A stretch of 64,000 nucleotides of DNA, from assembly GCA_000004985.1 (NCBI GenBank), contig GG738892.1; one strand, written 5' to 3'. Every line of letters starts with the position of its first letter. Position 1 is the stretch's first letter. Positions 4,819 to 16,757 of the stretch are shown here, piece after piece. The notes under the pieces are model-generated. The model was not told where the DNA came from. It saw only the letters and a program-made list of their open reading frames with translations, and made no database searches. The translations under genes were made by a program, and so were the position numbers. This DNA is from Naegleria gruberi. Its lineage: Eukaryota.

Positions 4819-5883
4819 CTACTTTTGTTCGTTGTTTTTTGAAATTGTCGTTGGTTGATCTGAATTGTCTGTAAACTGCATCAATATTTGTAAAAGATCC
4901 AAATTTTCAGAAGTAAAAGGTGAAAGCCCGCTCAAAAAACTTGAATTATCCATCTCGTTGAGAGTTTCATTGTTGTGAATGGAATATTGAGAGTTATTGA
5001 GAGAAGGTTCTGGATTTGGATCTTCATGCGTTAGAGGAGGATAAGGCGGAATGTCGGAGGGGATTGGCTGAGTATTACTTAACGAAAAGTTATTCGAATG
5101 TTGGGTAAAATTATGCATTATTTCAGAGTTCATTAATTCTTGTAAAGTCAATGAACTGTTTTGAAAATGTGCTGAAGTAGTGTTTTGAGAAGATTGGACG
5201 GATTGAGGCAAAACTTGCTGTTGTTGGGGTGGTGTAATCGATTTTCTAGAAGAATCCTCACTACTTTCAGATAATTTCGAATAAACTTGAAAGGTTTCCT
5301 TTTTGATAAAGCTTTCAGATGATGCAGAAGTGTTGCATGATTGTTGATCATGTGATGAATCTTGAGATGTTGTTTCTGATGGAATTATTTTAAAGGTTGT
5401 CACTTCATTAGACGAAACTCTGTCCATCTCAAAGTAATTCTTTAAAAGCTGATCGTTTTGGAGTGGTTTTCTCAGTCGTGTTGATTTCTTTCTTTTCCTT
5501 TTCGAAATTTTGTCTCGAGTTCTATTAGTTTCGTCTATTATTGAAACTCTTCTGTTTGAAGAAGTTTCGGATGGTTTTACATTAGTTACATGTTGTTGAT
5601 GTGTTTCACCTGTTTGGTGTTGATTAAGATCATGTTGATTCATTGTTTTTGGCTGGTTAGTTTCGGCACTCCATTGAATAGTTTCGTATTTTTGAAATTC
5701 ATTTCTTCTTTCCTGCTGTTGCAAGCTACTTTGAGGGTCTGTTGTTTGAACAGACATTACACGATTGTACTCTTCCTGACTAGTATTCGAATCTACAGAG
5801 AAATCAGACGAATGAACATCCTTCTCCTCTCTATCCATTCTTTTTTGAAGCAAGCACACAAGATTCATGGAGAGAGAACACAA
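4819..5883 (-). CDS. S/Q/N-rich hypothetical protein with a basic, NLS-like block
   Basis: 354-aa ORF. It has a basic segment KRKRKKSTRLRKPLQNDQLLKNYF and a conserved C-terminal LDLLQILMQF motif. It is a tandem paralogue of the 3989..4594 gene. Confidence 0.5.
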   Translation of the reverse strand: MCSLSMNLVCLLQKRMDREEKDVHSSDFSVDSNTSQEEYNRVMSVQTTDPQSSLQQQERRNEFQKYETIQWSAETNQPKTMNQHDLNQHQTGETHQQHVTNVKPSETSSNRRVSIIDETNRTRDKISKRKRKKSTRLRKPLQNDQLLKNYFEMDRVSSNEVTTFKIIPSETTSQDSSHDQQSCNTSASSESFIKKETFQVYSKLSESSEDSSRKSITPPQQQQVLPQSVQSSQNTTSAHFQNSSLTLQELMNSEIMHNFTQHSNNFSLSNTQPIPSDIPPYPPLTHEDPNPEPSLNNSQYSIHNNETLNEMDNSSFLSGLSPFTSENLDLLQILMQFTDNSDQPTTISKNNEQK

Positions 5884-6764
5884 ACAACAACTTGTTTTGA
5901 TTCTTTTTTGATTTATTTTGTAAAGTTATTTGTTATTCGAATGAAGTAACAAACTGTAATGTTCGTTCAATTGCATTATCAAGGTAATGTTTGGAAGGTT
6001 GTAACATAAAAGACTTGCCCTAAGTGACATGATCAGTCGAAGCGTGATATATTCTATCAATTGTGGTTCGGTAGCTAAAAGCTGTTAGCTCTCACCCCCA
6101 AAAAGGTCAAACACAATTACGACATTATTTGCAAATGGAATACATGTATCGAATAAAAAGTGTTTCGCTATGAACTTGAACGAAAAGGCCATTAATGATA
6201 ATGTCTGATAGCATTGAACTGCTTGAGGTTCATTTTTAATCAAAAATGGCCATTACTAATTTGTATTTGAATCAATCAGTTCTCTCGTTTCTCGTTTACA
6301 AATTGGAGATTCTTATATTGGATATTCCAATGTTAGTTGTTCACAATATTGAAGTTTAATTATTGTCTAAAAGTGTGTTTCCAGTATTATTATTATTATT
6401 AGCACAGGAAGTCTCAAACGATATTGAATTCTTATTGAAAGGCATCATCACATCTCTCATCTTTACAATAAAATCTCAATAAATCTCAATACTGTACAGA
6501 ACAACAATTTTCAATGTTCAAGTATAGAACTTTTGCTCACATCAAACTGGCTCGCTACTTGAACTCAATTCCAATTTGTGCGACTTTAGAGCGGAGCTCA
6601 ACTCGAGATTAAATCCAGACACATTGAGCTTGTAGTTTTCACTACCCTAAGAGTGGATGTAGTTGGTGGTGTAGCCGGTAGCCGGTTACAGCCGGATGGT
6701 AGTGCGGGTAGTCGGAAGCTGTTGAATACACCTTCAAAGCCAAAAATTAATAAAAGTTCTATTT

Positions 6765-8195
6765 TTAAAATTTAACTTTATGGAAATTCATGAAAAACGA
6801 GTATTGGTTGAACATTTCTTTGCCAGCAATATTATGAATCAAACATTTACCAATTATTTGATTTAGTGCAACATAGCCTGTTGTTACATGAATGTTTGAA
6901 TCAATTAATCTATATCCAATAATTGGATGAACCGAAGAGAGACACTTTTTGATGTTGGTGAAATATACTCTTTGCTCTTTAACCTCAACAAATTGACCAA
7001 CAAGTAAGGAACCATCCTTTGCCTTAAATAAAATAAATTCTTTGTTTTGTACAATTGGAATCCATTTCTTGTTTTCAGATTGATTTCTTACCCAAGGATA
7101 ATTGATGTTAATTTGTTTTTGAAGTTTTTCAAAATTCGCTCCTCGTTGTTCTAAATTTTTGTGATTGGAAGAGTCATTAAATTGTTTGAAAACTTTGTGT
7201 TTCAATTCAAAAAGCAATGCCCAGAAGAACCTGGCATTTCCCCACTTCAAACAATCTTCAAAAATATGAGAATTCCAATGAAAATTAGGATTTGTAAAAT
7301 TACCATTACCATATAGGGAAATGACTTGTTTCCTGAAATTGAAATGTTTCAATTTTGCAATTTCAATATTTGAAGGTGAAACCAAATCTTGAATCAAAGA
7401 AAGTACGTATTCTACGTGATTTGACCAACATATTATATGTTTCTTCTTCAAACTGAATGAAACATCACAGTGATTCTTATTATTAATAAGAAAATCATAC
7501 ATAATTGGGCAACTAAAAACCACGAATTCCAAAAAATGATCTGCTGAACAATCATTGTAATCTTTTGCAATCATTTTCAAAGGTTTACCATGATTGTTTG
7601 TATACTTGTCCATAACAGACTGAAAATCACTTAAAATGTTGGTGTAATTGAAATATTTGAAAAATTTTTTAAGGTGTCTCCTTAAATCACCTTGAATAGA
7701 ACCATGCATTAATTCAACAGTTGAATTTTCAAAAATATCACAATCCTTAATTTGTAAAAACGGACACTTCATTTGAGTATTGTTACTTTGTCGAACTTTT
7801 TCTTTTACCTGTTTGGATTTTTTGGACTTGGAATCAATCTGCATATCTTTGATTTGAATATCAGCGACTGTAATAAACTTGTAGCCATTACATGAGGTAC
7901 CAATTGATAATTTTTGTTGCATTTCAATTGCTTCAGTAACAGTTCTTAAAGGATAGACTAAAGGTGTTGAAATGTCATTAGGACATTTACAATAATCTCC
8001 TTTTGGGCATTTACATTTAGAACATGTATAGCTTTCAAGAAATAATGATAGCCATCTTTGTACAGAATCCCAAATCCAAGGACCTATTAGAATTCGAATC
8101 TTTTCAATTGAATCAGTGTAAGAGTTATAANNNNNNNNNNNNNNNNNNNNNNNNNNNNNNNNNNNNNNNNNNNNNNNNNNATTATTATTTTCCAC
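6765..8195 (-). CDS. Hypothetical Cys-rich protein; the N-terminal region is interrupted by a 50-N assembly gap
   Basis: 476-aa ORF containing a CSKCKCPKGDYCKCP cysteine cluster. I recognise no domain. The run of X residues near the N-terminus corresponds to the N-run at 8131..8180. Confidence 0.5.
   Translation of the reverse strand: MENNNXXXXXXXXXXXXXXXXXYNSYTDSIEKIRILIGPWIWDSVQRWLSLFLESYTCSKCKCPKGDYCKCPNDISTPLVYPLRTVTEAIEMQQKLSIGTSCNGYKFITVADIQIKDMQIDSKSKKSKQVKEKVRQSNNTQMKCPFLQIKDCDIFENSTVELMHGSIQGDLRRHLKKFFKYFNYTNILSDFQSVMDKYTNNHGKPLKMIAKDYNDCSADHFLEFVVFSCPIMYDFLINNKNHCDVSFSLKKKHIICWSNHVEYVLSLIQDLVSPSNIEIAKLKHFNFRKQVISLYGNGNFTNPNFHWNSHIFEDCLKWGNARFFWALLFELKHKVFKQFNDSSNHKNLEQRGANFEKLQKQININYPWVRNQSENKKWIPIVQNKEFILFKAKDGSLLVGQFVEVKEQRVYFTNIKKCLSSVHPIIGYRLIDSNIHVTTGYVALNQIIGKCLIHNIAGKEMFNQYSFFMNFHKVKF
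8131..8180. other. Assembly gap (50 N)
   Basis: Run of n characters in the sequence. Confidence 0.99.
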
Positions 8196-8433
8196 AATTA
8201 ATTAGAGCTATTGTTATGTCAGTAAGATATTCAGCAATCTGTGGAGTTCTTTTAAAAGAAAGAGTCTAATAGAATTAAAGAAAAAAGAGAAGCCAAAAAG
8301 AAAGAAGAATTCCAATGTAGAAGTTTCTAATATAGAAGGGGTTCCATCCTCAATTCAAGCAACAGCTATTCAACCTTCTACCTCTTCACCAACAAGAGAA
8401 CATGTCAGAGCCAACAATGGTCAATTCTCTTCA

Positions 8434-8625
8434 TTGCAGAGCTATGTTGCAGAAGATGAACAAGTTGTTTTTTTAACACTTGTTAAAGATTGGATCAAAA
8501 AACCTGACACAAGAGCAACACAACCTTCAGCAGACGCAATTAATTTGCTTGATATGGAATCAGATGGTGCAGATCTTTATTCAGATAATGGTCAATCAGA
8601 CTCAGAAGAAGCACAACAATTGTAA
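8434..8625 (+). CDS. Possible small acidic protein or terminal exon (weak)
   Basis: The ORF reads ...VVFLTLVKDWIKKPDTRATQP...LDMESDGADLYSDNGQSDSEEAQQL. The frame is open upstream toward the gap, so it could be a 3' exon. No homology recognised. Confidence 0.2.
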   Translation: MQSYVAEDEQVVFLTLVKDWIKKPDTRATQPSADAINLLDMESDGADLYSDNGQSDSEEAQQL

Positions 8626-8689
8626 ATAAATAAATCAGTTTTACTCAAATTATGAAAATTGTAATGGTCAACAGAGTAAATTAAGGGAA

Positions 8690-8830
8690 ACTTTCAGTCA
8701 AATACCAACACACTAAAAGCCGCATAGAAACTGAATGTTCACCGAATAGTCACTGAATGTTTACCATATAATAACTGAATGGTTACTGAATATTTATTGA
8801 ATAGTTACCCACCAATTTCATTCCTTTACC
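8690..8830. repeat. Degenerate tandem mini-repeat based on (c)actgaat(g/a)(g/t)tta(c)c in the 8196..9220 intergenic region
   Basis: The motifs actgaatgttcacc, gaatagtcactgaatgtttacc, aactgaatggttactgaatatttattgaatagttaccc follow each other directly. Confidence 0.6.
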
Positions 8831-9220
8831 CAACAATCAACCGACTACCAACCAACTAACACTGAACTAAAACGGTCAGGAGAGTATGGGCTGATATTCG
8901 ATTAATTTCTGGAAAATCGTTCAGTTGTTTTCGGAAACAAGTTGGGGAAAATTAGGGTTGTAGTCGGTGATAGTAGGGTTGTGGATGGGGTTTAGACGGA
9001 ACATAGCCAACTAAAAACCAACTATAACACTGTCTATTACCCAAGTACTCCACTCTTAGGACCCATGTGTTTCACACCACTACAACATACAACATCAAAA
9101 CAAATAGCTAAACATCATCTCTTAGAAGAAGTGCACCTTTGAATTTCTCTGTGCAATTCCGCGAGTTAAATACAACAAGACAATAATTAAATACTTTTTA
9201 ATATATATTCCAGATAGAAA

Positions 9221-10879
9221 ATGCCTAGAATTGGTATTGTAGGAGGTGGTCCAGGAGGACTTTCAACTGCCAGTATGTTTTATTTTGATTTTTATTATGT
9301 TTAAATACAATATTTTTTGTAAACTATTTAAAAACTATTGAAATACACTATTGAAATACTATTGAAATACTTAGTGATTTTGGCTAGTAAGGGATTTGAT
9401 GTAACCATTTTTGAAAAATCCAAAGTAATTGGTGGTAGAACTTCATCATTCAATGTTGGCCATTCCAAATTTGATTTGGGTCCAACTTTTCTCATGATGA
9501 AATTTGTTTTGGATAAAGTTTTTCAAGATGCTGGAAAGGATTCATCGAATTATATGAAATTCCAACAATTAAATCCAATGTACAGATTACAATATAATCC
9601 AGATAAGCATATGGATTGTTATGATTTAACACAAAAATCAAAAATGATTGGTGAAATGAAAAGATGTTTCCCACAAGATGTGAAAGGATATGAAGAATGG
9701 GTTGATTGGGAAACTCAAAGATATGAAAAGTTATTACCACTCTTACAAAAGGCTTACACTTCACATAGTGACGTTGTGTCAATGGACGCAATTCGTGCAA
9801 TTCCATATATGCAATTTCCAAAATCACTTCATGAAATGTTAGGTGGTTTCTATAAGGATCCATTGACCAAGTTATCTTTCAGTTTCCAAGCTAAATATTT
9901 GGGAATGAGTCCATATACTTGTCCTGCTTTTTATGGAATAATTCCATATGTTGAACATGCATTTGGTGTTTATCATGTTGAAGGAGGTCTTTCAGAAATT
10001 ACAAGAACTATGGCCATTGCTGCAACTGAGAATGGAACAAAGATTAAGCTTAATACTCCAGTGACACAATTAATTGTCGATCAAGCTAATAGACGTGTGA
10101 AAGGTGTCAAAGTTATGGAAGAAGGTCAAGAAGAGAATGAATATTATTTTGATGAAGTTGTTTTGAATGCTGACTTCCCTTATGCTGTAAATAATTTAAT
10201 TCCAAATGCTGAAAATTTAATGAAACAATGGAAACCAAGTAAGCTTGCCAAGATGAAATATTCATGTTCCACATTTATGCTTTATTTGGCACTTGACAAG
10301 GAATATCCTGAAATTCAACACCATACCATTTCATTTGCTGATGATTATGCTGCCAATTTGAAGGCCATTCAAGAGGGAAGATTAACAGAAGATTTGTCGA
10401 TTTATGTGAGAAATTCATGTGTTAATGACAAGACAGTTTCACCAAAGGGTAAATCTGGTATCTATGTTTTGGCTCCAATACCTAATCTCATTGATAGTCA
10501 AGGACAAATCGATTGGAATGATCAAAATACTGTAAAGAGATGTAGAGAAATTGTTTTGAACCATTTGGAAAAGAGAGTTGGAATGACTGATATAAGACAA
10601 CATATTGAAGATGAATTGGTCATTACTCCAAAGACATGGCAAAACAATAATATTTACAATGGTAGCGTCTTTTCATTGTCGCACAATCTCTTACAAATGT
10701 TATCCATGCGTCCAAGAAATAAGTTCAACGAATTGGAGGGATTGTACTTGACTGGTGCTCACACTTCTCCAGGTTCTGGACTTCCAACAATCTTTGAAAG
10801 TGGAAGAATGGTTACTGAACTATTGTGTAACAAATATGGTGTACAATATCAAAGATCTAGTTTGTTACATCAAAAATAA
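9221..10879 (+). CDS. crtI: CrtI-type phytoene desaturase (FAD-dependent carotenoid desaturase), two exons approx. join(9221..9272,9375..10879)
   Basis: Exon 1 MPRIGIVGGGPGGLSTAS carries a GxGxxG dinucleotide-binding motif, followed by a GTATGT donor. A ~100-bp intron ends at the cttag acceptor. Exon 2 begins ILASKGFDVTIFEK...GGR. The C-terminal blocks LSIYVRNSCVNDKTVSPKGKSGIYVLAPIPNL and GLYLTGAHTSPGSGLPTIFESG align closely with bacterial and fungal CrtI or Al-1. Confidence 0.8.
9334..9370. repeat. Short tandem repeat (actattgaaatac x ~3) inside the crtI intron
   Basis: The unit actattgaaatac repeats directly, immediately upstream of the intron acceptor. Confidence 0.7.
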
Positions 10880-14337: not shown

Positions 14338-15171
14338 TTAATAACTCATTTCATCTGGTTGAGGACCCTCTTCTTCATCTGTATCATTGTAATAAGAATA
14401 ATAAGGAATATATTCACTGATAACATCGTTCACATTCGATTCTGCCTCTGTAAATTCCATTTCATCCATTCCTTCAGCTAAATACCAATTTACAAATGCT
14501 TTTCTTCTAAACAACTTTGAGAACTCCTCTGAAGTGAATTTCAAGTAGTTACTCATAGCACTTGAACTAGCCAGGAGAGAGCCACTTCTTTTGAATCCTT
14601 GTTGAGCAACTTTGCAATAGGAAGATTGAAAGTTATTTGGAATCCATTCATGAAAGTACGAGCTTTGATAAATACATGTTCTAAATAGTTCGTTTTCGGC
14701 ATTGGAGGTAGTAAAGTCTCCTCTAAAGGTGGCTGAACAAGTGTAATATCGTCCCTCTTTGGGATTGAGTGAGGCCAAAAAGTGCGAAGGAACCAACAAT
14801 TGGCGTACAATGTCTGTAAGTTGAATGTCAGTGTTATCCATCCCCTTAATTTGTTTTCCAAGAGGTGCCATTGAAGACACTAAAAAGTGAATACGAGGGA
14901 ATGGTATCATGTTAGTTGCCAGCTTTCTCATATCATTATTGACGAACCCATTAAATCTGAACGAGCAAGTTTCAGCACATAGCGACTGAGCAATAACCTT
15001 ATTCACATCTTCTAGATTTGCTTTTTCTAATTCAATCTTATTTCTACAAATATTATACACAGCTTCATTATCATAAAATTTCACATAATCAACAAATTCT
15101 ACAAGGTTTTGCAATTGTAGTATTGAGTTGTATGGTGCCAGCACTCCGTCTGACACGTTCTNNNNNNNNNN
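14338..15171 (-). CDS. Divergent beta-tubulin-like protein; the 5' part is lost in an assembly gap
   Basis: The C-terminal two-thirds of a tubulin is present. [17 protein letters not shown] matches beta-tubulin [27 protein letters not shown] matches SYFVEWIPNN, and [34 protein letters not shown] matches [34 protein letters not shown]. Several other blocks are strongly diverged. The N-terminus runs into the N-run. Confidence 0.75.
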   Translation of the reverse strand, partial: [277 protein letters not shown]

Positions 15172-15624
15172 NNNNNNNNNNNNNNNNNNNNNNNNNNNNN
15201 NNNNNNNNNNNNNNNNNNNNNNNNNNNNNNNNNNNNNNNNNNNNNNNNNNNNNNNNNNNNNNNNNNNNNNNNNNNNNNNNNNNNNNNNNNNNNNNNNNNN
15301 NNNNNNNNNNNNNNNNNNNNNNNNNNNNNNNNNNNNNNNNNNNNNNNNNNNNNNNNNNNNNNNNNNNNNNNNNNNNNNNNNNNNNNNNNNNNNNNNNNNN
15401 NNNNNNNNNNNNNNNNNNNNNNNNNNNNNNNNNNNNNNNNNNNNNNNNNNNNNNNNNNNNNNNNNNNNNNNNNNNNNNNNNNNNNNNNNNNNNNNNNNNN
15501 NNNNNNNNNNNNNNNNNNNNNNNNNNNNNNNNNNNNNNNNNNNNNNNNNNNNNNNNNNNNNNNNNNNNNNNNNNNNNNNNNNNNNNNNNNNNNNNNNNNN
15601 NNNNNNNNNNNNNNNNNNNNNNNN
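15172..15624. other. Assembly gap (453 N)
   Basis: Run of n characters. It removes the 5' end of the tubulin gene and the 3' end of the upstream membrane-protein gene. Confidence 0.99.
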
Positions 15625-16757
15625 TTCTGGCATAGTTCAGAGCTCTGATTGCAGGAATAGTTGTCAAAATTATTACTTGACTCATGGCATAAAAGGAAAG
15701 AATTACTGGAATAGGAATAATATAATCCACCAATTGATTCAAAATGTCAATGCGAGGAAGTGCAAAACTGAGTATGACACAAATTAACATTAAGGTTGTC
15801 GTAACTGATGCTTCCAATTTGATTCCCCAAGTGTCCTTTTCCCTAATAATTACCAATATTAAACAACAAAGAGTAATAATTCCATAAAGGCAATAGAATG
15901 CAATGTACAGAGGAACTGTATTTGGTTTGGTTAAACAACCAGTTCCGAATTGTTTCCATCCGAAACTTGGATAATTATGAGTAAAAGACTCTGGACCCAA
16001 AACCTCAATCATTCCAAGCACCAACCAAATAATTGAATGAAGAGAGAATAAACCAATTTGAACGATCAACAAGAACTTATTACTTAGAAGAAACTTGTAC
16101 ATAATCAAGAGTTTCTTCTGATAGTTACTAAATTGCACTTTCAATGATTGAGAACTGTCATCTTTTTCTTGAGAGATGATATCATTCACAACTTTCTGAA
16201 CTTGTGACCTGTTATTAGAAACATCACCAACTGCTTCTGGAAAACTTGATTTCATAGTTAATAATTGAAATAATCGACCTCGTATCACAAATGAAAAGCA
16301 AGCATACCTTAAAATTATTATTTCTAAAAAAGGGAACGAGAAAAACTACATACATGGCTGGAAGTGGCATAGCCCAACACAAATTGAACGCCACAAATGA
16401 AAATAATCCACAAGGAAAGATATCGCGTCCTATAATCCATCTTAGACACGGTATTAAAACATGTACAGTCCCAGCCATAATATTCGACAAAATCCAAAGC
16501 ATTCCTCTCGAATGAATATGTCCACTCTTTCGTTTCAGAAAGACAACAATCAAAGTAAAGCATAATATTGGAAGAAAGAAAAGCAACATAATAGAAGAAA
16601 ATATAGGAACAATAATGGTATCTGGACATGCTAACATCATCTTGTCTGCTGACGACGACGATAATGAGTTATTGAGCAGTAGAAGAGTATTGACACCTCT
16701 AAAGGGTATCCCTAATTCAAATAATAGAGGATTACAGGGTAAAGAAGATGTATTCAT
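15625..16757 (-). CDS. Multi-pass transmembrane protein, possibly two exons (16757..~16300 and ~16288..15625); C-terminus lost in the gap
   Basis: Both parts consist of several hydrophobic helices: ...IVPIFSSIMLLFFLPILCFTLIVVFL... and ...LLIVQIGLFSLHSIIWLVLGM...YIAFYCLYGIITLCCLILVII.... No family recognised. The X-containing ORFs 15089..16288, 15018..15635 and 15128..15787 are artefacts of translating the N-run. Confidence 0.35.

What the first reader, a model, noticed from the sequence alone, without database searches (positions are those of the whole stretch)
6640..9010. Unknown Cys-rich gene bracketed by G-rich blocks, a mini-satellite and a short inverted repeat
The 476-aa ORF 6765..8195 has no recognisable family and contains a CSKCKCPKGDYCKCP cluster. 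It sits in an atypically large non-coding neighbourhood for this compact genome. Immediately 3' of it is a strand-biased G-rich block (gtagccggtagccggttacagccggatggtagtgcgggtagtcgg, ~6650-6710). On the 5' side, beyond the 50-N gap, lie a degenerate actgaat tandem array (8690-8830) and an imperfect ~25-bp inverted repeat (caaccgactaccaaccaactaac at ~8836-8858 versus ggttgtagtcggtgatagtagggttgtgg at ~8958-8990). These share the core gtagtcgg / ccgactac with the 3' block, so a ggtagtcgg (6700s) / ccgactacc (8840s) inverted pair brackets ~2.1 kb that includes the gene. Possible explanations are a degraded DNA-transposon or other inserted element carrying the gene, a structured non-coding RNA locus, or unusual promoter architecture. 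The 50-N gap may hide more repeat.
Basis: seen in the sequence. Interest (0 to 1): 0.5.

Follow-up and report, generated by a model that had tools for sequence, protein, structure and literature searches.

The report
Naegleria cut-and-paste DNA transposon copy
The "unknown Cys-rich gene" is the transposase of a multi-copy cut-and-paste DNA transposon (CACTA/Transib/RAG1-like type) of the amoeba Naegleria gruberi, and the G-rich block, mini-satellite and inverted repeats are the transposon's own ends, so this is an ordinary kind of mobile element that is simply unannotated here.

Summary
The window is Naegleria gruberi. ORF 6765-8129(-) is the C-terminal 454 aa of a ~750-860 aa DDE transposase. 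The 50-N scaffold gap removes its N-terminus, including the first catalytic Asp.

Evidence that it is a transposase:
- A family profile hits plant CACTA/En-Spm transposases (hmmsearch E 2.9e-11; hhalign 96.6%).
- The "Cys cluster" holds the conserved C(2)C zinc motif, paired with H(3)H.

The "non-coding" 5' side contains exon 2 (8206-8625, +) of a second, divergently transcribed element gene. Both genes occur as neighbours, 99-100% identical, on at least two other N. gruberi scaffolds.

The true terminal inverted repeats are 6646-6666 and 9041-9060 (CCTAAGAGTGGA...). The same terminal motif sits downstream of the homologous transposase in two other assemblies. The G-rich block and the ccgactacc region are subterminal TAGYYGG motif clusters in inverted orientation: 9 of the window's 20 matches fall in about 240 bp.

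Verdict: a recently active CMC/Transib-clade DNA transposon, a new member of a known kind. The target-site duplication and the exact lineage remain open. No evidence supports an ncRNA or a special promoter.

The parts
6644..6645 (.). Left flanking dinucleotide AC. Candidate 2-bp target-site duplication, paired with 9061-9062. Weak evidence.
   Evidence: Read directly. The alternative reading is termini CAC(6640)...GTG(9069) with TTT/TTT flanks. Neither can be verified from one copy.
6646..6666 (+). Left terminal inverted repeat, CCTAAGAGTGGATGTAGTTGG.
   Evidence: Best inverted local alignment between the two flanks, 20 of 21 positions with one gap. The 12-mer is exact only here and at 9049-9060 in 64 kb, against 0.16 matches expected at up to 1 mismatch. 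The motif CYTARGAGTGG is also found 175-290 nt downstream of the homologous transposase, facing inward, in L001 and L003, and nowhere else in 107 kb.
6659..6716 (+). Four TAGYYGG motifs, all on the + strand.
   Evidence: matches at 6660, 6672, 6679, 6709. (GTAGCCG x2.3). Composition.
6765..8130 (-). 3' part of the transposase gene (stop codon 6765-6767). It encodes aa 288-741 of the 741-aa paralog model P0004. Second catalytic Asp D308 at 8067-8069; C(2)C C323/C326 at 8022-8024 and 8013-8015; H429 at 7704-7706; H(3)H H571/H575 at 7278-7280 and 7266-7268; catalytic Glu E595 at 7206-7208.
   Evidence: 100% identity to P0004 and residue mapping. Conserved columns. hhalign to a CACTA transposase. 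RAG1-like fold.
8131..8180 (.). Scaffold gap of 50 N inside the element. It hides at least transposase aa 1-287 (with the first catalytic Asp D220 and the N-terminal zinc-finger region), the divergent promoter region, and exon 1 plus part of the intron of the accessory gene.
   Evidence: Gap located. Missing parts inferred from paralogs P0004 and P0086. tblastn finds no N-terminal coding anywhere else in the window.
8181..8205 (+). 3' end of the intron of the accessory gene (...aattag|AGC).
   Evidence: P0084 and P0086 read ...VQSI|(S)YCYVSK across this point, whereas the window has a stop codon just upstream in frame.
8206..8625 (+). Last exon (139 codons plus stop) of the element's second gene. 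It encodes a 193-241 aa protein with a basic KKKEKPKRKK stretch and an acidic C-terminus. Function unknown.
   Evidence: 99% identity to NAEGRDRAFT_79192. (4-member cluster). (100% identity to P0086). No Pfam match. Partly conserved in L003, E 5e-9.
8729..8808 (+). Degenerate 11/22-nt tandem array (ACTGAATRKTTAC) in the right subterminal region.
   Evidence: Four exact ACTGAAT within 62 nt. The motif is not enriched window-wide.
8830..9024 (-). Right subterminal motif cluster. TAGYYGG at 8841, 8852, 9007 and 9018 on the - strand and at 8961 on the + strand.
9041..9060 (-). Right terminal inverted repeat, CCTAAGAGTGGAGTACTTGG on the - strand.
9061..9062 (.). Right flanking dinucleotide AC. Candidate 2-bp target-site duplication.
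   Evidence: Weak evidence.

Best explanation
Window 6646-9060 is one copy of a two-gene, cut-and-paste (class II) DNA transposon of Naegleria gruberi. An assembly gap interrupts it.

The minus-strand ORF is the C-terminal three-fifths of its DDE transposase. That enzyme belongs to the CACTA/Mirage/Chapaev/Transib (CMCT) clade and has a RAG1-like fold.

Inferred mechanism:
- The transposase recognises the 20-21-bp terminal inverted repeats (CCTAAGAGTGG...) and/or the clustered subterminal TAGYYGG motifs. In full-length relatives it carries N-terminal C2H2 zinc fingers that could do this.
- It pairs the two ends.
- It uses the D220-D308-E595 triad of an RNase-H-like domain to cut the element out and reinsert it with a short target-site duplication. 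A C323xxC326 / H571xxxH575 zinc site, as in RAG1, would buttress that domain.

The second, divergently transcribed gene (exon at 8206-8625) travels with the transposase. It is presumably an accessory factor, but its role is unknown. The element sits in the roughly 0.9-kb divergent intergenic region between a low-complexity protein gene and an amine-oxidase-family gene, which explains the apparently oversized non-coding neighbourhood.

Shown: homology, fold, motifs, inverted repeats, motif clustering, multi-copy status, and co-occurrence of the two genes. Inferred: DNA-binding assignments, chemistry, current activity, and what the gap hides.
For: Organism and copies:
- The ORF is 99% identical to N. 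gruberi XP_002679140.
- Its >=90% identity cluster holds 4 N. gruberi proteins recorded on contigs of four different lengths, 530, 362, 342 and 7.7 kb.
- The window's 454 aa are 100% identical to P0004 and differ from P0001 at 3 residues.
- The accessory exon is 99-100% identical to a parallel cluster whose members include two on contigs of the same lengths (530 and 362 kb). Their UniProt accessions are adjacent to the transposase accessions: D2VAA4/5 and D2VNN7/8.

Homology:
- Exhaustive phmmer finds 76 relatives.
- Among 27 aligned relatives, D220, D308, C326, H429, G434, H571, H575 and G584 are >=90% conserved and C323 is invariant.
- The profile hits plant proteins carrying PF02992 Transposase_21 and PF13960 DUF4218, E 2.9e-11.
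- hhalign gives 96.6% probability, E 5e-10, over 415 columns. It aligns DGFNP, DFPA, CPVC, D.MH and the H...H...GP...W.YP.ER blocks.
- Two direct phmmer hits pass Pfam's Transposase_21 cut-off, at 49.3 and 43.1 bits against 28.6. Other relatives match DUF4218, Plavaka and DUF1258.

Structure:
- The model has pLDDT 82.3 and pTM 0.81.
- Foldseek's top 25 PDB hits are RAG1, E 1.3e-10, followed by ProtoRAG and HzTransib.
- The N-terminus of the family profile matches C2H2 fingers, E 1.9e-5.

Ends:
- The terminal motif CYTARGAGTGG is conserved at the homologous position in L001 and L003.
- A distant relative on a 5.5-kb metagenome contig has 17/18 inverted repeats starting with the same CCTAGG. All 5 of its CCATGG motifs lie within 300 nt of its ends, and it has the same divergent small-gene plus transposase layout. 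The P0007 locus shares that layout.

Mobility:
- The N. lovaniensis homolog lies in a non-syntenic neighbourhood and carries frameshifts.

Literature:
- RepeatModeler already lists 'CMC-EnSpm' repeats in N. lovaniensis (PMC6125883).
Against: - No other N. gruberi copy could be read as DNA, so termini, target-site duplication and dispersal rest on one complete pair of ends plus protein-level copy counts.
- In an unbiased flank-against-flank scan, the inverted-repeat score is reached by 13 of 200 shuffles. It is convincing only together with the cross-locus conservation.
- The conserved terminus begins CC, not the CA/CAC usual in this clade.
- The only matching flanks are AC/AC, which is weak.
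- The first catalytic Asp and the zinc-finger region are not visible in this copy.
- The protein itself has no Pfam hit.
- The accessory protein has no assignable function. Its model is unusable, with pLDDT 40.
Confidence: 0.9

Rival explanations
1. Same transposon family, but this particular copy is an internally deleted, non-autonomous derivative. On this reading the gap really is about 50 bp, and roughly 1.7 kb or more has been lost: the transposase N-terminus, the promoter region and accessory exon 1.
For: The assembly's gaps appear to be size-estimated, since the other gap in the window is 463 N. A 50-N gap may therefore mean a short gap. Deletion derivatives are common in CACTA-type families (general knowledge).
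Against: The sequence on both edges of the gap continues in register with the full-length paralogs (codon for V287 on the left, intron on the right). Both deletion breakpoints would therefore have to fall inside the 50 unread bases. Assembly breaks inside near-identical repeats are common, and 50 N may be a floor or placeholder value.
Confidence: 0.2
2. The copies are segmental duplications or unmerged haplotigs of a single locus that holds a domesticated, immobile transposase-derived gene pair. They are not products of recent transposition.
For: The window copy and the copy on the 362-kb scaffold are 100% identical in protein. Two cluster members sit on ~7-kb contigs that could be haplotigs. 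Flanks of the other copies could not be inspected.
Against: Inverted repeats lie exactly where a transposon's ends should be. The terminal motif is conserved in other genomes and subterminal motifs cluster at both ends. Three large scaffolds are involved, and a third copy differs at 3-5 residues. The N. lovaniensis position is non-syntenic and that copy is decayed. Relatives are patchy and often fragmentary, as expected for transposons.
Confidence: 0.06
3. The repeats mark a structured non-coding RNA locus, or an unusual promoter architecture serving an ordinary host gene.
For: There are strand-biased G-rich motifs, a tandem array and local inverted repeats in intergenic DNA.
Against: An Rfam E-value scan of 6400-9300 gives only a chance-level mir-200 match, 20 bits against an 86-bit gathering score. 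No tRNA was found. The motifs are arranged as mirror-image clusters next to terminal inverted repeats around a transposase gene, which fully accounts for them.
Confidence: 0.02

Closest known systems
En/Spm (CACTA) superfamily DNA transposons (Pfam Transposase_21 / DUF4218 type transposase)
   Same: Profile-level sequence homology across the whole catalytic region. [quoted passage not shown] Short terminal inverted repeats plus clusters of short subterminal motifs in both orientations. Two element-encoded genes. RepeatModeler already labels Naegleria repeats 'CMC-EnSpm'.
   Different: The protein does not reach Pfam thresholds itself. The conserved terminus reads CCTAAGAGTGG rather than CACTA/CAC. 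A 3-bp target-site duplication is not demonstrated. The two genes are divergent rather than produced from one transcription unit. Full-length relatives have an N-terminal C2H2 finger region and a C-terminal Sm-like beta-barrel.
RAG1 / ProtoRAG / Transib
   Different: About 10% sequence identity and no sequence-level PDB hit to RAG1. No CACAGTG-type heptamer at the ends. No RAG2-like partner. A 5-bp target-site duplication is not seen.
Plavaka, Mirage and Chapaev (other CMCT lineages)
   Same: They share the motif architecture. One phmmer relative matches Pfam Plavaka at 3.4e-10, and two match DUF1258 (my recollection, untested here, is that DUF1258 is a C. elegans family of Mirage type). The possible 2-bp duplication would fit Mirage or PlavakaA.
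   Different: No TGT..ACA termini. The Naegleria protein itself matches none of these models. No phylogeny was run.
KDZ (Kyakuja-Dileera-Zisupton) transposons with CxC zinc clusters
   Same: A Cys-rich cluster next to a DDE transposase suggested this at first sight.
   Different: No KDZ or CxC Pfam family appears among the 25 families listed (of 31 matched) for the 27 relatives. The sequence and fold links go to Transposase_21 and RAG1 instead. An 8-bp duplication is not supported.

Membership tests
CMC / CMCT clade of DDE transposons (EnSpm-Mirage-Chapaev-Transib and allies) | [quoted passage not shown] | tested here: met
   D220, D308, C323xxC326 and H571xxxH575 are conserved in 27 relatives; E595 is invariant among the five closest. 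All except D220, which lies in the gap and is seen only in paralogs, map into the window ORF. The criterion is taken from PMC12730594.
CMC / CMCT clade of DDE transposons (EnSpm-Mirage-Chapaev-Transib and allies) | Detectable homology of the catalytic region to recognised members | tested here: met
   hmmsearch E 2.9e-11 to proteins with PF02992 and PF13960. hhalign 96.6% over 415 columns. Two direct phmmer hits pass Transposase_21 gathering scores.
CMC / CMCT clade of DDE transposons (EnSpm-Mirage-Chapaev-Transib and allies) | RAG1/Transib-like RNase-H fold | tested here: met
   [not shown]
CMC / CMCT clade of DDE transposons (EnSpm-Mirage-Chapaev-Transib and allies) | Terminal inverted repeats, usually 5'-CA..TG-3', and a 2-5 bp target-site duplication | tested here: inconclusive
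   Inverted repeats are present at 6646-6666 / 9041-9060, but they start with CC. The flanks are AC/AC (2 bp). The alternative boundaries CAC(6640)..GTG(9069) with TTT/TTT are not supported by cross-locus conservation. Only one complete copy was available.
EnSpm/CACTA superfamily in the strict sense | Direct match to Pfam Transposase_21 / DUF4218 at curated thresholds | tested here: not met
   No Pfam family for the window ORF, P0001, P0004, P0007 or others. Only weak DUF4218 in P0012, E 0.014.
EnSpm/CACTA superfamily in the strict sense | CACTA (CAC..GTG) termini and a 3-bp target-site duplication | tested here: inconclusive
   CACTAC lies just outside the left repeat and CACATG (reverse complement) 9 nt outside the right one, with TTT on both sides. 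These outer bases are neither symmetrical nor conserved in L001, L002 or L003.
EnSpm/CACTA superfamily in the strict sense | Subterminal clusters of short repeated motifs in direct and inverted orientation | tested here: met
   TAGYYGG has 9 of its 20 window matches in about 240 bp at the two ends, + strand on the left and mostly - strand on the right. The relative in L002 shows analogous CCATGG clusters.
Active or autonomous transposon family | Several near-identical dispersed copies with intact ORFs | tested here: inconclusive
   At the protein level there are 4 transposase and 4 accessory cluster members, three of the latter N. gruberi proteins, on contigs of several different lengths at 99-100% identity. 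This copy is interrupted by the gap.
Transib / RAG1-like elements | CACAGTG-like heptamer termini and a 5-bp target-site duplication | tested here: not met
   The termini read CCTAAGAGTGG, and there is no 5-bp flank match.
KDZ (Kyakuja/Dileera/Zisupton) | KDZ transposase and CxC domains; 8-bp target-site duplication (Zisupton) | tested here: not met
   No KDZ or CxC Pfam family among the listed families for the 27 relatives. The flanks share TTTCAC only at unequal distances from the repeats.

The most novel reading that the evidence does not exclude
Probability: 0.35. Interest if true: 0.45.

Novelty: new member of a known kind. Interest (0 to 1): 0.27.

Why it matters
The result turns four 'predicted protein' and three accessory gene models of N. 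gruberi into transposon genes. It also explains a local assembly gap and an oversized intergenic region.

Near-identical intact copies suggest a recently active DNA transposon in a genome that has very few. That could be of practical use for insertional genetics in Naegleria. It also adds a discoban data point for the deep history of RAG1/Transib/CACTA-type transposases.

It does not reveal a new kind of system.

Tried and rejected
- **Direct Pfam scans** of the ORF, its paralogs and the accessory protein found nothing.
- **Fetching the other N. gruberi copies** failed. They are not on record in the contig index, so target-site duplications and boundaries could not be checked on paralogs.
- **Two metagenome scans** found nothing: protein patterns from alignment A2, and the terminal-repeat pattern.
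- **The afdb50 fold library** was unavailable.
- **My first reading of the termini**, CACTAC... (6640) / ...CATGTG (9069) with a TTT 3-bp duplication, looked like a textbook CACTA element. I downgraded it because the conserved, symmetrical sequence starts at CCTAAG in the window and at the homologous CCTAGG/CTTAGG in L001, L002 and L003, with nothing conserved outside it.
- **A KDZ/CxC transposase**, suggested by the Cys cluster, was rejected.
- **A weak tblastn hit** of the transposase to 15920-16276, next to the second gap, lies in a hydrophobic membrane-protein ORF and is chance.
- **A single-sequence AlphaFold model of the accessory protein** was unusable, with pLDDT 40.
- **Short ENA contigs** for P0009 gave no flanks.
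- **Self-BLASTN** found no second copy of the element in the window.
Full report
**Observation.** I read 6000-9600 and listed its ORFs and repeats.
These are the minus-strand ORF with CSKCKCPKGDYCKCP, the G-rich block just beyond its stop codon, the degenerate ACTGAAT array (Tandem Repeats Finder 8729-8808, period 11/22), the local imperfect inverted repeat near 8830-8977, and the unique GGTAGTCGG (6707) / CCGACTACC (8841) pair.
- The local inverted repeat scores 25, and 1 of 1000 shuffles reaches that.
- Two corrections matter. First, the ORF's first 22 codons are N's read from a bacterial GTG, so only 8129..6768 (454 aa) is real and the protein has lost its N-terminus to the 50-N gap at 8131-8180. 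Second, the '5' non-coding side' contains a 139-codon open frame on the plus strand, 8206-8625.

**Organism and copy number.**
- The ORF is 99% identical to a 645-aa 'predicted protein' of Naegleria gruberi and 43% identical to an N. lovaniensis protein.
- Its >=90% identity cluster has four N. gruberi NEG-M members recorded on contigs of four different lengths: 530, 362, 342 and 7.7 kb.
- The 385-aa member, NAEGRDRAFT_71659, is the gene model of this window. It starts at the first Met after the gap.
- The window's 454 residues are 100% identical to the 741-aa member P0004. They differ from P0001 at three residues.
- The plus-strand exon is 99-100% identical to a second four-member cluster (193-241 aa; NAEGRDRAFT_79192, _80659). 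Two of its members sit on contigs of the same lengths (530 and 362 kb), and their UniProt accessions are adjacent to those of the transposase genes (D2VAA4/5, D2VNN7/8). The two genes are therefore neighbours at two or more other loci.
- The window sequence just upstream of 8206 ends in ...aattag, and the paralog proteins splice across it. Exon 1 therefore lies in the gap.
- The two genes point away from each other, with both 5' ends in the gap.

**What the protein is.** Direct Pfam scans are empty. The sequence evidence runs as follows.
- An exhaustive phmmer search of 1.84 billion representatives gives 76 relatives. The long ones are 830-930 aa.
- In an alignment of 27 relatives, C323 is invariant and D220, D308, C326, H429, G434, H571, H575 and G584 (P0004 numbering) are >=90% conserved. 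The consensus blocks are LYxDxFxK, DxPQR, CxxC, VDxFHxxxxGL and PNFHxxxHxF...GPPxxWxxxFExKH.
- The alignment profile hits plant proteins annotated with PF02992 (Transposase_21, 'tnp2'), PF13960 (DUF4218), PF13952 and PF13963 at E 2.9e-11 in a 5.8-billion-sequence database.
- hhalign gives 96.6% probability, E 5e-10, over 415 columns, matching each block to the DGFNP / DFPA / CPVC / D.MH / H..VHL..GP..WMYP.ER blocks of the CACTA transposase.
- Two of the direct phmmer hits pass Pfam's curated Transposase_21 threshold themselves (49.3 and 43.1 bits against 28.6). Others match DUF4218, Plavaka and DUF1258.
- The N-terminal part of the family profile matches C2H2 zinc fingers, E 1.9e-5.

The structure evidence agrees.
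- An AlphaFold model of P0004 built on the 27-sequence alignment is confident, with pLDDT 82.3 and pTM 0.81.
- Foldseek's 25 best PDB hits are all RAG1 core structures (E 1.3e-10, target TM 0.60), followed by amphioxus RAG1-like and Helicoverpa Transib.
The extra cysteines are lineage-specific.
- D308, H429, H571/H575 and E595 lie in the visible ORF. D220 lies in the gap.

**The ends.**
- An alignment of the left flank against the reverse complement of the right flank picks out CCTAAGAGTGGATGTAGTTGG (6646-6666) against CCTAAGAGTGGA-GTACTTGG (9060-9041).
- The 12-mer occurs exactly twice in 64 kb, in inverted orientation, against 0.16 matches expected at up to 1 mismatch.
- Taken alone this is only marginal. 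In an unbiased 766 x 975 nt flank comparison, 13 of 200 shuffles reach the score.
- The degenerate motif CYTARGAGTGG has only four exact matches in 107 kb of window plus fetched loci. Two are these, and one each lies in N. lovaniensis (L001 11102-11112) and in another assembly (L003 10826-10836). Each of the latter lies 175-290 nt beyond the stop codon of the homologous transposase and points inward.
- A distant relative (30% identity) on a 5.5-kb metagenome contig has 17/18 inverted repeats, CCTAGGAAGGTCAAAACA, that begin with the same hexamer. They lie 14 and 97 nt from the contig ends.
- Nothing outside the motif is conserved or symmetrical. I therefore place the termini at 6646 and 9060, not at the CAC(6640)/GTG(9069) that first caught my eye.
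- The flanks then read AC|...|AC, which is a weak candidate 2-bp duplication. The alternative is TTT/TTT with the outer boundaries. The target-site duplication is unresolved.

**Subterminal repeats.**
- TAGYYGG occurs 20 times in the window, against 9.9 +/- 2.8 expected.
- Nine of those matches fall in about 240 bp. Four on the minus strand and one on the plus strand are at 8841-9024.
- The ACTGAAT array sits between the accessory gene's stop codon and these motifs.
- The metagenome relative shows the same design with a different motif. All five CCATGG in 5.5 kb lie within 300 nt of its ends.
- Short inverted terminal repeats plus clustered subterminal motifs are the classic anatomy of CACTA-type elements.

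**Mobility and context.**
- The N. lovaniensis homolog covers the whole protein but in three frames. It lies among unrelated genes (BTB, GST-like, VWD) with no synteny to this window.
- Here the element lies between a low-complexity protein gene (start near 5883, minus strand) and an amine-oxidase-family gene starting at 9222. It sits in about 0.9 kb of divergent intergenic DNA.
- That placement, plus the element's own untranslated ends, explains the 'atypically large non-coding neighbourhood'.
- An Rfam E-value scan and a tRNA scan of the region are negative.
- No second copy exists in the window.

**The gap.**
- From the paralogs, the gap must hide at least transposase residues 1-287 (861 nt), probably a further zinc-finger-coding stretch, the divergent promoter region, and accessory exon 1 (103 codons) with part of its intron. 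That is about 1.7 kb or more, for a full element of roughly 4-5 kb.
- Sequence on both edges of the gap continues in register with the paralogs.
- Collapse or non-placement of reads from a near-identical repeat is the likeliest cause. An internally deleted copy with both breakpoints inside the 50 N cannot be excluded, and I give it about 0.2.

**Mechanism (inferred).**
- The proposed chemistry is cut-and-paste transposition by a RAG1-like DDE enzyme.
- End recognition would use the terminal repeat and/or the TAGYYGG clusters, possibly through the C2H2 fingers or the accessory protein.
- Catalysis would use D220/D308/E595 with a Cys2/His2 zinc site.
- Reinsertion would create a short staggered-cut duplication.
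- Homology, fold, motifs, repeats and copy number are shown. Binding assignments, chemistry and present-day activity are inferred.
- The accessory protein has a basic stretch and an acidic tail, and it is partly conserved in L003 at E 5e-9. It has no Pfam match, and its model is unusable.

**Comparison and novelty.**
- The element works like, and is homologous to, CACTA/CMC transposons and structurally resembles RAG1/Transib.
- Strict EnSpm membership is not established. It has no direct Pfam match, its termini start with CC, and a 3-bp duplication is unproven.
- KDZ and Transib membership tests fail.
- 'CMC-EnSpm' repeats are already tabulated for N. lovaniensis (PMC6125883), so the kind is known in this genus. 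I could not check whether Repbase or Dfam already hold this family.
- I rate it a new member of a known kind, with modest interest.
- The main residual novelty would be that it represents a distinct CMCT lineage with unusual termini and a still-active, two-gene organisation in a discoban.

Noticed in passing
L001 8272-8336 and 11113-11177 (N. lovaniensis PYSW02000058.1): A perfect 65-bp direct repeat brackets the decayed N. lovaniensis copy. The right copy starts immediately after the element's terminal motif CCACTCCTAGG. The left copy abuts the zinc-finger ORF, and there is no accessory gene or left inverted repeat. It is far too long for a DDE target-site duplication. It may reflect aberrant transposition, gap repair or a local duplication, and it remains unexplained.
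   Followed up: partly
window 15162-15624: A second assembly gap (463 N) lies inside a minus-strand tubulin-family gene (Tubulin_C E 7.9e-18 for 14341-15159). It is unrelated to the transposon. The weak transposase tblastn hit next to it (15920-16276) is a hydrophobic membrane-protein ORF and is chance.
   Followed up: yes
[not shown]
   Followed up: no
L003 1438-2174(-) versus 8001-10550(+) (GCA_041937235.1): In this assembly the accessory-gene homolog (E 5e-9) lies about 6 kb from a fragmented transposase homolog. Kelch, RCC1 and myosin-head genes lie between them, and an aldo-keto-reductase fragment lies between the transposase pieces. This may be two separate relics or a rearranged copy.
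   Followed up: no
window 9322-9370: An 11/24-nt tandem repeat (AACTATTGAAAT x4) lies in what looks like the first intron of the amine-oxidase-family gene, whose ATG is at 9222 and whose coding sequence resumes near 9375.
   Followed up: no
window 6355-6368 and 9178-9191: A perfect 14-nt AT-rich inverted pair (TTTAATTATTGTCT / AGACAATAATTAAA) also brackets the element from outside (I20). It is probably chance in 33% GC DNA and was not seen in relatives.
   Followed up: partly
window 6637-6642 and 9070-9075: TTTCAC occurs on both sides of the element, but at unequal distances from the inverted repeats: 3 nt on the left and 9 nt on the right. It was considered as a longer target duplication and judged probably coincidental.
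   Followed up: partly
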